Source: Escherichia coli (GTDB lineage Bacteria; Pseudomonadota; Gammaproteobacteria; Enterobacterales; Enterobacteriaceae). From it: DNA of 64,000 nucleotides. How positions within the stretch are numbered: position 1 is the stretch's first letter; each line of letters opens with the position of its first letter. Below the pieces are notes generated by a model that saw only the letters and a list, made by a program, of their open reading frames with translations, did not search any database and was not told the DNA's origin. Shown piece after piece: positions 51,047 through 52,424 of this stretch. The stretch lies in the NCBI RefSeq assembly GCF_050920415.1, contig NZ_CP169310.1, one strand, 5' to 3'. The position numbers and the translations under genes were made by a program.

Positions 51047-52424
51047 TGTATGTAATCAACGAGCGATGATTAGCTACCATCGCATGAAGCGGAGAGAACC
51101 TACCCCATCATCTAAGGTAATAACCTTCGTCAACAGCTATAGTCCTCTGCTTCACCTTTCACGCCAGCATTAACATTGAACGGTTGCCAAGAGCTAAGAC
51201 TCTGCATGAACAAGACAAATTGGCGTGATGGTTATGTGAAAGGAGAAAAAATGCCGATGTACCAGTTAGGTATTGATGTCAGTAAAAACACTCTTGATCT
51301 ATGCCTCTTACGGGAGGGCATCAAAGGGAGGATCAAAACTCGTAAGCTAAAAAATACTGCTGATGCGGCTAAAGTCGTGGCAGAGTGGCTTAAAAAGCAA
51401 TCCTGTGAACTGGGCGAAGTTCATATCATCATGGAAGCCACTGGGGTATATCATGAACCTCTGGCTTATGGCCTTCACTTTGCTGGCGCCAGAATTTCTT
51501 TAGCCAATCCTCACCGCACAAGGGAATTTGCCAGAGGTATGAATATCCTGACCAAGAATGACAAAGTTGATGCCTGGATGCTGGCTTGTTATGGCTCCCT
51601 TAAAGAGCCTGAGGCATGGACTCCACCACCAGAATCTGTGCGGTATCTTAGAGCTCTTTTACGCCGCAGAGACGCTCTTGTTGCAGACAGCACCAGAGAA
51701 AAAAACAGACTTGAAAAATCTGTTTTTACAGACAGCCCTGATGCCGTCAGGGCGTCAATTGAAAACATGCTTCAGGAGCTGAGCAATGAGATCGAACATC
51801 TTGATGTCCTGATCCAGGAACATATTAAAACTCACCCTGAGCTCAACCAGGATTTCAGACTGTTAACATCAATAAAATCTGTTGGTTACCTGCTGGGATT
51901 AAATATGCTGGCAATACTCAAAAGCCATTCATTCGAATCAGCAGAGCAGGCAGCAGCATTCCTTGGTGTAGTTCCGGTAGAAAGGAGATCTGGCACATCT
52001 GTAAAGGGAAAACCTAAATTATCTAAAATTGGACCACCGGAGATAAGAACAAAACTTTATCTTGCCGCTTTATGTGGGCTGAGATTCAACCCTGTAATGA
52101 AACAGATGTATACGAAGTTATGCCAGAGGGGAAAGTCAAAGATGTGTGCTATTGGAGCATTAATGCGAAAACTTGTGCACTGGTGCTATGGTGTGCTGAA
52201 AACGCAGTTACCATTCGACGCTGAATACAACCAACAAAGTCATTATAAAACAACATGTTAATCAACACCATCGGAGCAATACTGAAGCAACATGTTTGTA
52301 TCTTTTTCCTTCTATCATGGTATTTAACTGAGCATCTGCTCTTTTTATAAAAACTCAGAGAAAATTTCTCCTGAAAATGGAATGTTCAAACATCACATAA
52401 TTTTCTTGACTAAACACGGTAGCT
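51047..52424 (+). mobile_element. IS110-family insertion sequence (about 1.38 kb), boundaries inferred
   Basis: Boundaries inferred by comparing the interrupted repeat copy (51030-51046 plus 52425 onward) with the intact copy at 60540-60570; no terminal inverted repeats, as expected for IS110-type elements. Confidence 0.6.
51251..52261 (+). CDS. IS110-family (DEDD) transposase
   Basis: About 336 aa from MPMYQLGIDVSKNTLDLCLL, with the N-terminal RuvC-like DEDD region and C-terminal IS110/IS1111-type domain. Confidence 0.85.
   Translation: MPMYQLGIDVSKNTLDLCLLREGIKGRIKTRKLKNTADAAKVVAEWLKKQSCELGEVHIIMEATGVYHEPLAYGLHFAGARISLANPHRTREFARGMNILTKNDKVDAWMLACYGSLKEPEAWTPPPESVRYLRALLRRRDALVADSTREKNRLEKSVFTDSPDAVRASIENMLQELSNEIEHLDVLIQEHIKTHPELNQDFRLLTSIKSVGYLLGLNMLAILKSHSFESAEQAAAFLGVVPVERRSGTSVKGKPKLSKIGPPEIRTKLYLAALCGLRFNPVMKQMYTKLCQRGKSKMCAIGALMRKLVHWCYGVLKTQLPFDAEYNQQSHYKTTC

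What the first reader, a model, noticed from the sequence alone, without database searches (positions are those of the whole stretch)
51047..52424. IS110-family element inserted inside a leading-region repeat, with non-coding ends that could encode a bridge RNA
The intact copy reads GTTTTCAGCCCCCATCACCCGTTGAG; the interrupted copy has the element between CATCA and GTTGAG, giving boundaries to within 3 bp without any terminal inverted repeats. The roughly 200-bp non-coding stretch upstream of the transposase and 160 bp downstream are where IS110-type elements encode the structured RNA that guides recombination. The insertion also separates the repeat from the operon it would drive.
Basis: partly seen in the sequence, partly recalled or inferred. 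Interest (0 to 1): 0.5.

Follow-up and report, generated by a model that had tools for sequence, protein, structure and literature searches.

The report
Bridge-RNA insertion sequence in plasmid promoter
This is an ordinary, intact IS110-type mobile element whose own guide RNA matches the exact spot where it sits, at the foot of a single-stranded-DNA promoter of an F-like plasmid; the mechanism is already known, and this very sequence is in the published bridge-RNA data set.

Summary
Confirmed. A 1378-bp element (51047-52424, or equally 51045-52422 because a CT dinucleotide occurs at both junctions) interrupts the oriT-proximal Frpo repeat of an IncF plasmid. It lies 40 nt upstream of a 95-aa gene and 5-6 nt outside the base of the Frpo hairpin. 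Empty orthologous sites read CCATCATCT|GTTGAG, so insertion is exact, with no duplication and no terminal inverted repeats.

The 336-aa protein has the IS110 DEDD and Tnp domains and all five catalytic residues (35% identity to IS621). The 204-nt left end folds like the IS621 bridge RNA: a 5' hairpin and two internal loops. The first loop carries CCCCAUCAUCU (identical to the left target plus core) and UCAACAGCU (complementary to core plus right target, plus two handshake bases matching the donor). The second loop matches the element's own ends. The right end is unstructured but supplies a TTGACT -35 box.

Independent copies sit in a second Frpo repeat, in chromosomal betT (15 of 16 target bases identical) and near ilvL. 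Relatives carry different guides that track their own flanks.

This donor and these targets are already in the supplementary data of Durrant et al. 2024. The Frpo link appears undescribed. Interest is low to moderate.

The parts
51047..52424 (+). Whole IS110-group element, 1378 bp. It could equally be written 51045-52422, because CT occurs at both junctions.
   Evidence: Junctions compared with empty sites L003 and L004. The same ends occur in betT and in a second Frpo copy, L021. It is 100% identical to pCFSAN004180G.
51038..51046 (+). Left target half-site CCATCAT plus the CT core (target-derived)
   Evidence: Identical to bases 51105-51113 of the element's own RNA loop. Shared with the betT site.
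52425..52431 (+). Right target half-site GTTGAGT
   Evidence: Together with the CT core (CTGTTGA) it is complementary to 51130-51136. A 10-nt perfect inverted match links 51130-51139 and 52420-52429 (I11).
51047..51250 (+). Left non-coding end (204 nt) encoding the bridge RNA. The predicted start is near 51063.
   Evidence: RNA fold of -51.2 kcal/mol, z = -2.25. Alignment with 8 relatives. 11 pairs carry compensatory changes against 3.8 +/- 1.3 in shuffles, 0 of 500.
51051..51056 (+). -10-like hexamer TGTAAT. On the excised circle it lies 17 nt from the TTGACT in the right end.
   Evidence: Read from the sequence. By analogy with the IS621 junction promoter (PMC11208160). It has G at the usually invariant second position, so it is unproven.
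51063..51083 (+). 5' hairpin GCGAUG-AUUAGCUAC-CAUCGC
   Evidence: 4 of 6 pairs show compensatory changes among relatives, and 97.9% of cells are paired. The loop UUAGCUACC is invariant.
51085..51154 (+). Target-binding loop module. Outer stem 51085-51097 / 51143-51154. Left target guide plus core 51103-51113 (CCCCAUCAUCU). Inner hairpin 51114-51127. Right target guide 51130-51136 (UCAACAG). Handshake bases 51137-51138 (CU).
   Evidence: The loop sequences are hypervariable among relatives while the stems are conserved.
51159..51228 (+). Donor-binding loop module. Outer stem 51159-51167 / 51220-51228. Left donor guide 51180-51187 (ACGGUUGC). Inner hairpin 51190-51203. Right donor guide 51206-51214 (AUGAACAAG). 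Handshake bases 51215-51216 (AC).
   Evidence: ACGGUUGC matches ACGGTAGC of the right end at 7 of 8 positions. AU..ACAAG is the complement of CTTGTAT with a 2-nt bulge, the same discontiguous 9-on-7 pattern described for IS621 (PMC11208160). The loop is nearly invariant among close relatives that share the same ends.
51251..52261 (+). Recombinase gene, 336 aa, preceded by a Shine-Dalgarno AAGGAG at 51240-51245
   Evidence: PF01548 (E = 1.2e-24) and PF02371 (E = 1.4e-18). NF033542 at 214 bits. 35% identity to IS621 over 323 aa, with D9, E62, D104, D107 and S247 aligned to D11, E60, D102, D105 and S241 (PMC11208158).
52262..52424 (+). Right non-coding end (163 nt). It holds the -35-like TTGACT at 52406-52411, the left donor half-site ACGGTAG at 52416-52422, and the CT core at 52423-52424.
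   Evidence: No stable fold (z = +0.15). Sequence read directly.
52425..52950 (+). Interrupted Frpo-type single-stranded-DNA promoter repeat (oriT-proximal copy)
   Evidence: 100% identical over 300 nt to the ssb-proximal copy. The orthologous empty copy folds as ssDNA into a roughly 320-nt hairpin (-104 kcal/mol, z = -9.4) that starts 5-6 nt right of the insertion point. Background: PMC11541004, PMC9849209.
50719..51006 (-). 95-aa leading-region gene, positional equivalent of F ygeA, now 1378 bp further from its ssDNA promoter
   Evidence: ORF list. Annotated context oriT, SLT gene, DUF932 gene, this gene, Frpo. Assignment to ygeA is by position only (PMC9849209).
60544..60569 (+). Uninterrupted paralogous site upstream of ssb, reading CATCACCCGTTGAG. 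It lacks the CT core. A third copy lies at 63911-63948.

Best explanation
An intact, recently active IS110-group insertion sequence of the IS621 type. Its left end encodes a bridge RNA programmed for the sequence CCATCAT-CT-GTTGA at the gene-proximal foot of Frpo single-stranded-DNA promoters of F-like plasmids.

Inferred cycle, by analogy with IS621:
1. The element excises as a circle.
2. The junction of its right and left ends brings TTGACT and TGTAAT 17 nt apart and drives transcription of a roughly 170-190-nt RNA and of the recombinase.
3. [quoted passage not shown]
4. The second loop pairs in the same way with the element's own joined ends.
5. The DEDD/serine recombinase exchanges strands at the shared CT.

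Shown here: the boundaries, the protein family and its catalytic residues, the RNA architecture with covariation, guide-target and guide-donor complementarity including the handshake positions, and repeated use of matching sites.

Inferred only: the circle, the promoter, the RNA ends and catalysis.

Consequence, also inferred: the Frpo hairpin is uncoupled by 1.4 kb of antisense IS sequence from the ygeA/ygeB-like operon it normally drives during entry into a recipient.
For: Protein:
- Pfam DEDD_Tnp_IS110 plus Transposase_20.
- NCBIfam 'IS110 family RNA-guided transposase', 214 bits against a cut-off of 140.
- 35% identity to IS621 with all five catalytic residues aligned (residues from PMC11208158).

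Boundaries:
- Empty sites.
- The betT reading frame is restored only when a single CT is kept.

RNA:
- The fold shows a 5' hairpin and two stem/internal-loop/hairpin modules.
- On 9 relatives (8 distinct sequences), 88% of cells are paired and 11 pairs have compensatory changes, against 3.8 +/- 1.3 in shuffles (0 of 500) and 1-6 in slid controls.

Target guides:
- An 11-nt identity to the left flank plus core lies on the 5' side of loop 1. Only 1 of 2000 shuffles of the left end reached this.
- A 7-nt complement of core plus right flank lies on the 3' side of the same loop.
- That match extends to a 10-nt perfect complement of the post-insertion right junction (I11). This is what a right target guide plus donor-matching handshake bases predicts (PMC11208158).

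Donor guides:
- The left donor guide matches 7 of 8 positions.
- The right donor guide matches 7 of 7 donor bases through the discontiguous 9-nt pattern reported for IS621 (PMC11208160).

Independent sites:
- betT in two strains, carrying two IS variants (99.9% and 97.1% identical to the window copy). The 16-nt site matches at 15 of 16 positions.
- The ssb-proximal Frpo copy in 16 plasmids.
- At least four different left-flank alleles at the first Frpo copy.

Relatives:
- Guide loops differ between relatives and match each element's own flank. The left guide matches 8-9 of 9 positions in 6 of 8 lineages, against a mean of 5.4 for other elements' flanks.
- The right target guide matches 7 of 7 in L013 and, read by eye, in L018.

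Published data:
- The same donor and targets appear in the covariation input of Durrant et al. 2024.
Against: - No expression or activity data exist for this element.
- The proposed -10 hexamer TGTAAT has G at the normally invariant second position, and the consensus promoter scan listed nothing in the integrated state. The junction itself could not be scanned.
- Rfam 15 gave no bridge-RNA match.
- The left donor guide has one internal mismatch.
- The fold z-score alone is modest (-2.25).
- The covariation set is small: 8 distinct sequences, several of them closely related.
- Some relatives have flanks that do not match their guides (L013 left, L019 left, L020 right, L015), presumably after rearrangement. 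I could not define the right ends of the Klebsiella subgroup.
Confidence: 0.9

Rival explanations
1. All Frpo-associated copies descend from one ancestral insertion that spread by plasmid descent and homologous recombination between Frpo repeats. On this view the guide-like match is not evidence of continuing RNA-guided targeting.
For: Every plasmid copy has the same orientation and position. The Frpo repeats are at least 300 bp identical on the right side, which would allow recombination. Divergent IS variants sit in divergent flank alleles, as co-divergence would also predict.
Against: Copies occur outside any Frpo context at sites that share only the 16-nt motif: betT and the ilvL upstream site. 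In strain ARS-C301 the same 97.1% variant is on a plasmid and in betT. Left of the insertion point the Frpo copies share only about 20 bp. Relatives with other guides sit in other matching sequences.
Confidence: 0.07
2. It is an IS1111-group element whose guide RNA is encoded in the right end, as the reader allowed when listing both ends.
For: The right end is 163 nt, not much shorter than the left end. A 7-bp inverted match (AGCTACC at 51072-51078, GGTAGCT at 52418-52424) could be read as a short subterminal repeat.
Against: The right end has no stable fold (z = +0.15), and it differs in length and sequence among close relatives apart from its last 25 nt or so. Both target and donor guides lie in the left end. 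The recombinase and the left-end tip (CTTGTAT) resemble IS621, an IS110-group member. No long subterminal inverted repeats were found.
Confidence: 0.02
3. It is a decayed, immobile relic. The RNA-like features are remnants and the copy in the window no longer moves.
For: Some copies are clearly damaged: a 5-bp loss of TGTAT in L005 and its sister plasmids, and many truncated fragments. There is no direct evidence of activity for the window copy.
Against: The window copy has an intact ORF with all catalytic residues, and intact guides, ends and a -35 box. Copies 99.8-100% identical occur in several plasmids and at several sites, including two copies in one plasmid and a chromosomal betT copy at 99.9%.
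Confidence: 0.08

Closest known systems
IS621 (IS110 group; bridge RNA of Durrant et al. 2024, PMC11208160; structure in Hiraizumi et al. 2024, PMC11208158)
   Same: - Same domain pair and catalytic residues.
- Same CT core.
- The left end begins with TGTAT.
- The bridge RNA lies in the left end, with a 5' hairpin, a target loop and a donor loop.
- The left target guide is identical to the top strand of the left target plus core, and the right target guide is complementary to core plus right target.
- The right donor guide shows the same discontiguous pattern.
- Handshake bases pair with the non-cognate DNA at position 7.
- The -35 box is in the right end and the -10 box in the left end.
   Different: - Only 35% protein identity.
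- 1378 bp against roughly 1.28 kb.
- The donor left half is ACGGTAG rather than ACAGTAT.
- The natural target is the foot of plasmid Frpo hairpins rather than chromosomal REP sequences.
- It lives almost entirely on plasmids: 178 of 184 places in E. coli genomes, whereas IS621 left ends are almost all chromosomal, 12977 of 12993 places.
- The 5' hairpin loop is invariant and complementary to the right-end tip.
Unnamed relatives on enterobacterial and Acinetobacter plasmids (L013 at 73% aa identity; L016 and L020 from Pantoea; L014, L015, L017 and L019 at 59-60%; L018 at 44%)
   Same: They share the left-end tip, the 5' hairpin loop, the stems and an almost identical donor loop. Close relatives share the right-end terminus TTGAC.NAACACGGTAGC.
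   Different: Their target-loop sequences differ, and so do their insertion sites: C/T-rich motifs such as CCCTTCCCT and CCTTGCCCT. None of those examined sits in an Frpo repeat.
IS1111-group elements that target structured repeats (IS4321 and IS5075 in Tn21 inverted repeats; attC-targeting IS1111 members; cited in PMC11208160)
   Same: Same recombinase family. They follow the same strategy of inserting in one orientation at a fixed position of a conserved, hairpin-prone repeat carried by mobile DNA.
   Different: Those elements have long subterminal inverted repeats and a right-end-encoded RNA. This element has neither. ISEc66, an element of that type, lies 33 bp away in pRM14721.

Membership tests
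IS110 family (DEDD recombinase insertion sequences) | Recombinase with an N-terminal DEDD RuvC-like domain and a C-terminal Tnp (Transposase_20) domain containing the catalytic serine | tested here: met
   PF01548 E = 1.2e-24 and PF02371 E = 1.4e-18. NF033542 at 214 bits, above the cut-off of 140. D9, E62, D104, D107 and S247 align with IS621 D11, E60, D102, D105 and S241 (PMC11208158).
IS110 family (DEDD recombinase insertion sequences) | No terminal inverted repeats and no target-site duplication; a short core shared by donor and target | tested here: met
   Empty against occupied sites. The betT frame is restored with one CT only. No terminal inverted repeats were found.
IS110 group (bridge RNA in the left end, IS621 type) | [quoted passage not shown] | tested here: met
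   The left end is 204 nt and the right end 163 nt. Fold. Consensus fold and pair counts on relatives. The right end is unstructured.
IS110 group (bridge RNA in the left end, IS621 type) | The first internal loop carries guides matching the left target (bottom strand) and right target (top strand), including the core, and the guides covary with the targets across relatives | tested here: met
   11-nt and 7-nt matches. The betT site matches at 15 of 16 positions. Each element matches its own flank better than other elements' flanks. L013 right target guide matches 7 of 7.
IS110 group (bridge RNA in the left end, IS621 type) | The second internal loop carries guides matching the element's own right and left ends around the core | tested here: met
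   ACGGUUGC against ACGGTAGC, 7 of 8. AU-GA-ACAAG against CTTGTAT, 7 of 7 with a 2-nt bulge. Both read. The loop is conserved wherever the ends are conserved.
IS110 group (bridge RNA in the left end, IS621 type) | Handshake bases pair with the non-cognate DNA at position 7 and not with the cognate DNA | tested here: met
   C at 51137 in the target loop pairs with donor G7 and not with target T7. A at 51215 in the donor loop pairs with target T7 and not with donor G7. Read from the sequence; the rule is from PMC11208158. The 10-nt perfect match to the right junction is, I11.
IS110 group (bridge RNA in the left end, IS621 type) | A sigma-70 promoter is reconstituted across the junction of the right and left ends of the excised circle and drives the RNA | tested here: inconclusive
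   TTGACT (52406-52411), a 17-nt spacer and TGTAAT (51051-51056) would form on the circle. This matches 10 of 12 consensus positions but has G at the second position of the -10 box. There are no transcript data, and the scan tool cannot be run on a junction (one search covers only the integrated state).
IS110 group (bridge RNA in the left end, IS621 type) | Excision as a circular intermediate and RNA-dependent recombination | not testable with these tools
   Needs outward PCR or long reads, and a recombination assay.
IS1111 group | Subterminal inverted repeats of 7-17 bp and a bridge (seek) RNA encoded in a long right end | tested here: not met
   The right end has no stable fold. Both sets of guides lie in the left end. 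The only inverted match is a 7-bp one between the 5' hairpin loop and the right-end tip, 25 nt inside the left end (read from the sequence; not among the 25 pairs listed).
Rfam-curated RNA family | A match to any Rfam 15 covariance model | tested here: not met
   Only one chance-level hit, a plant miRNA at E = 0.61, and it lies outside the element.

The most novel reading that the evidence does not exclude
This IS lineage is a specialist parasite of the single-stranded-DNA promoters of F-like plasmids. Its bridge RNA is tuned to the foot of Frpo hairpins. By inserting between Frpo1 and the ygeA/ygeB-like operon it switches off, or delays, the earliest establishment genes expressed in a new host. 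That would measurably lower plasmid transfer, as deleting Frpo1 does in F, where transconjugant frequency falls from 92.6% to 25.2% (PMC9849209). A further possibility is that the hairpin-prone or transiently single-stranded state of the site aids guide invasion. That would link the preference of IS110-family elements for REP, attC, transposon inverted repeats and now Frpo.
Probability: 0.15. Interest if true: 0.55.

Novelty: already known. Interest (0 to 1): 0.3.

Why it matters
The mechanism adds nothing new. IS110 bridge RNAs were described in 2024, RefSeq already labels copies of this protein 'IS110 family RNA-guided transposase', and this exact donor, RNA and several of its targets are in the published covariation input.

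The modest value is natural history. A bridge-RNA element has as its natural address the base of the Frpo promoters that drive the first genes expressed when an F-like plasmid enters a cell. It occupies that address in roughly 150 sequenced plasmids. In F, that promoter and its downstream genes matter for conjugation efficiency (PMC9849209). The insertion is therefore a candidate natural modulator of plasmid transfer. It can also serve as a portable homology for plasmid-chromosome fusion, as in L011.

The paralogous sites that read CC instead of CT, and are empty, give a clean natural control for the core requirement.

Tried and rejected
- An Rfam search of the element and its flanks gave no relevant family.
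- The promoter scan of the integrated locus listed no sigma-70-like site. The tool requires A at the second position of the -10 box and cannot see the circle junction.
- A peptide-pattern scan of genome contigs with the single protein found no relatives. I used tblastn on plasmids instead.
- I could not define the right end of the Klebsiella/Enterobacter subgroup (L014, L015, L017, L019). Similarity ends about 75-80 nt after the stop codon, at a hairpin, with no recognisable donor half-site. I used only their left guides.
- A fixed-column comparison of guides and flanks misaligned four relatives by one column. I redid it with the best register.
Orthologous empty sites rule this out.
- I considered a right-end (IS1111-type) RNA and rejected it.
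- Four literature searches found no paper linking IS110 or bridge RNAs with Frpo or leading regions. The library is incomplete, and ISfinder could not be consulted, so the element may have an ISfinder name that I could not retrieve.
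Full report
**Context.** The window is the transfer and leading region of an IncF plasmid. The finding plus short flanks (window 51030-52440) is 100% identical to E. coli plasmid pCFSAN004180G. In that record the gene order is traM, oriT region, SLT transglycosylase gene, a 95-aa gene, the IS110-family gene, then IS66, hok, psiB, parB-like, DUF905 and ssb. The leading-region genes lie on the minus strand, so the plus strand is the transferred strand that serves as their template.

**The observation.** The junctions are ...GTTTTCAGCCCCCATCATCT|TGTATGTAATC... 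at 51046|51047 and ...ACACGGTAGCT|GTTGAGTTTCGGG... at 52424|52425. That copy is a paralogue lying upstream of ssb.

The orthologous site without an insertion, in plasmids NZ_CP013026 and NZ_CP043270, reads CAGCCCCCATCATCTGTTGAGTTTCGGG. The element is therefore 1378 bp, inserted exactly at a CT dinucleotide that is then present at both junctions. There is no duplication and no loss of bases. No terminal inverted repeats were found.

An independent check comes from two E. coli chromosomes with the element inside betT. The flanks there are ...CCATCATCT|IS|GTTTAGTG.... Only joining them with a single CT restores an uninterrupted frame, at least 635 codons long.

**The protein.** The ORF at 51251-52261 encodes 336 aa. 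It has the Pfam pair DEDD_Tnp_IS110 and Transposase_20. It scores 214 bits on NCBIfam NF033542, 'IS110 family RNA-guided transposase', whose cut-off is 140. I fetched an IS621 copy. The two proteins share 35% identity over 323 residues. D9, E62, D104, D107 and S247 align with the IS621 catalytic residues D11, E60, D102, D105 and S241 (residues from PMC11208158).

**The RNA.** The 204-nt left end folds with -51.2 kcal/mol (z = -2.25) into three parts:
- a 5' hairpin at 51063-51083;
- a stem (51085-51097 / 51143-51154) enclosing a large internal loop with a central hairpin;
- a second stem (51159-51167 / 51220-51228) enclosing another internal loop with a central hairpin.

This is the architecture reported for IS110-group bridge RNAs (PMC11208160). 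The 163-nt right end has no stable fold (z = +0.15).

To test the structure I collected relatives from plasmids by tblastn and fetched eight of them. Their left ends align well. The stems and the second loop are conserved, and the first loop is hypervariable. RNAalifold finds 17 of 50 pairs with compensatory changes. For the five helices I specified:
- 88% of cells are paired;
- 11 pairs carry double changes, against 3.8 +/- 1.3 in shuffles (0 of 500);
- slid controls give 1-6 such pairs.

The set is small, with 8 distinct sequences.

**Target guides.** On the 5' side of the first loop, 51103-51113 reads CCCCAUCAUCU. This is identical to the 11 nt of top-strand flank ending in the CT core. Only 1 of 2000 dinucleotide shuffles of the left end reached such a match. 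On the 3' side, 51130-51136 reads UCAACAG, the complement of CT+GTTGA.

Continuing 3', UCAACAGCUA is a perfect 10-nt complement of the post-insertion right junction TAGCT|GTTGA (I11). This is what the IS621 rules predict. The two bases after the right target guide are 'handshake' bases that pair with donor positions 6-7 after strand exchange, and they should not pair with the target's own position 7 (PMC11208158). Here C51137 pairs with donor G7 and not with target T7.

**Donor guides.** In the second loop, ACGGUUGC (51180-51187) matches the right-end terminus ACGGTAGC at 7 of 8 positions. AUGAACAAG (51206-51214) is the complement of CTTGTAT with a 2-nt bulge. This is the same 'nine RNA bases on seven donor bases, discontiguous' pattern described for IS621 (PMC11208160). 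The next base, A51215, pairs with target T7 and not with donor G7.

**Promoter.** On a circle, TTGACT (52406-52411) would lie 17 nt from TGTAAT (51051-51056). This resembles the IS621 junction promoter, but the -10 box has G at its second position and I have no transcript data. I mark this step as inferred.

**Target choice in nature.** The element occurs in 154 plasmid records, and 116 of those plasmids are typed conjugative. It occurs in 132 of 5426 complete E. coli genomes, with 178 of 184 places on plasmids. The sites are:
- The same position and orientation of the oriT-proximal Frpo copy, with at least four different left-flank alleles.
- The identical position of the ssb-proximal Frpo copy, in 16 plasmids. 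One of these, p2017C-4173W12, carries full copies at both sites.
- betT, where the 16-nt site CCATCATCTGTTTAGT differs from the Frpo site at one base. It is occupied by two IS variants, 99.9% and 97.1% identical to the window copy, in unrelated strains. One of those strains also carries the same variant on a plasmid.
- An ilvL-upstream site.

The two other Frpo copies in the window read CATCACCCGTTGAGT, lack the CT core and are empty.

Relatives carry other first-loop sequences that match their own flanks. The left guide matches 8-9 of 9 positions in six of eight lineages, against a mean of 5.4 for other elements' flanks. The right guide matches 7 of 7 in L013 and, read by eye, in L018. Some flanks do not match: L013 left, L019 left, L020 right and L015. 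I attribute these to later rearrangement but did not show it.

**The target itself.** As single-stranded DNA, the empty Frpo copy forms a hairpin of about 320 nt (-104 kcal/mol, z = -9.4). Its base begins 5-6 nt to the right of the insertion point. The insertion lies 40 nt upstream of the start codon of the 95-aa gene (50719-51006, minus strand).

By position this is the Frpo1-ygeA-ygeB arrangement of F. There, Frpo1 is required for early ygeA expression, and its deletion lowers transconjugant frequency from 92.6% to 25.2% (PMC9849209). In the window, a transcript starting in the hairpin would have to cross 1378 nt of IS in antisense before reaching the gene. A loss or delay of early expression is therefore plausible, but it is untested.

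**Comparison with what is known.** The element meets every sequence-testable criterion of an IS110-group, IS621-type bridge-RNA element. It does not meet the IS1111 criteria.

It is not new. The supplementary covariation inputs of Durrant et al. 2024 contain this exact donor and RNA (ATTTTCTTGACTAAACACGGTAGCTTGTATGTAATCAACGAGCGATGATT...). They also contain Frpo, betT and ilv targets that match what I found independently. RefSeq already labels recent copies 'IS110 family RNA-guided transposase'.

I found no paper connecting IS110 or bridge RNAs with Frpo or plasmid leading regions. The library is partial, and I could not query ISfinder.

**Verdict.** The kind is already known, and interest is low to moderate. 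The remaining open point is biological: whether occupation of Frpo1 changes plasmid establishment.

Noticed in passing
L011 (NZ_CM142782 chromosome) 4014-5391 and flanks: An IS copy has a chromosomal left flank (upstream of ilvL, GCCCCCAATCACT|) and a plasmid right flank (Frpo, hok, psiA, psiB, parB-like). This indicates an F-like plasmid integrated into the chromosome at an IS copy. The ilv site appears as a natural target in Durrant 2024 Supplementary Data 2. The record holds a second copy, which I did not fetch.
   Followed up: partly
L002 (pRM14721) about 1546-2984: ISEc66 is a different IS110-family element, of IS1111 type, with 13-bp subterminal inverted repeats (ATGAACACATCCC / GGGATGTGTTCAT). 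It is inserted 33 bp to the left of this IS, at the start of the ygeA-like gene. Two unrelated members of the family therefore occupy the same Frpo-to-gene junction.
   Followed up: partly
L005 2530 (NZ_CP104511 and sister chicken plasmids): The left-end tip has lost TGTAT, so the junction reads CATCATCT|GTAATC. This removes the right donor half-site, and the copy should be immobile.
   Followed up: no
window 51151-51162 and 51236-51247: The recombinase Shine-Dalgarno region (GUGAAAGGAGAA) is complementary to the linker between the two RNA loops (UUCACCUUUCAC). The pairing is conserved in relatives (I7). This suggests the full-length RNA sequesters the ribosome-binding site.
   Followed up: no
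window 51069-51078 and 52418-52424: The 5' hairpin loop UUAGCUACC is invariant in all nine relatives, including the Acinetobacter element at 44% aa identity. [quoted passage not shown] In the Acinetobacter element the tip is GGTATCT, so the match is not perfectly kept. Its function is unknown.
   Followed up: partly
L013 (pEC21Z014-165K) 2280-2296: The left flank of the 73%-identical relative reads ACAGTATCT|TGTAT. This equals the IS621 donor core region and does not match that element's own left guide, whereas its right flank matches its right guide 7 of 7. It may be a product of recombination with another IS110 element. BLAST found no IS621 right end upstream.
   Followed up: partly
window 55758-55957: An exact 100-bp tandem duplication lies between the IS66 region and the hok/psi genes (D2).
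   Followed up: no
window 52355-52615 (minus strand): An 86-aa ORF spans the IS right end and the left arm of the Frpo hairpin. Several RefSeq records annotate it as 'single-stranded DNA-binding protein'. It is almost certainly an annotation artefact, because it crosses the insertion junction.
   Followed up: no
L016, L020, L013 right ends; L014, L017, L020 left flanks: The Pantoea and Klebsiella relatives insert next to a shared motif (GCCGG..GTTGACAGGTT.CACC...CCCTTC.CCCT). The long right ends of L013, L016 and L020 themselves contain a similar motif. This may be another repeated element targeted by this clade. I did not identify it.
   Followed up: no
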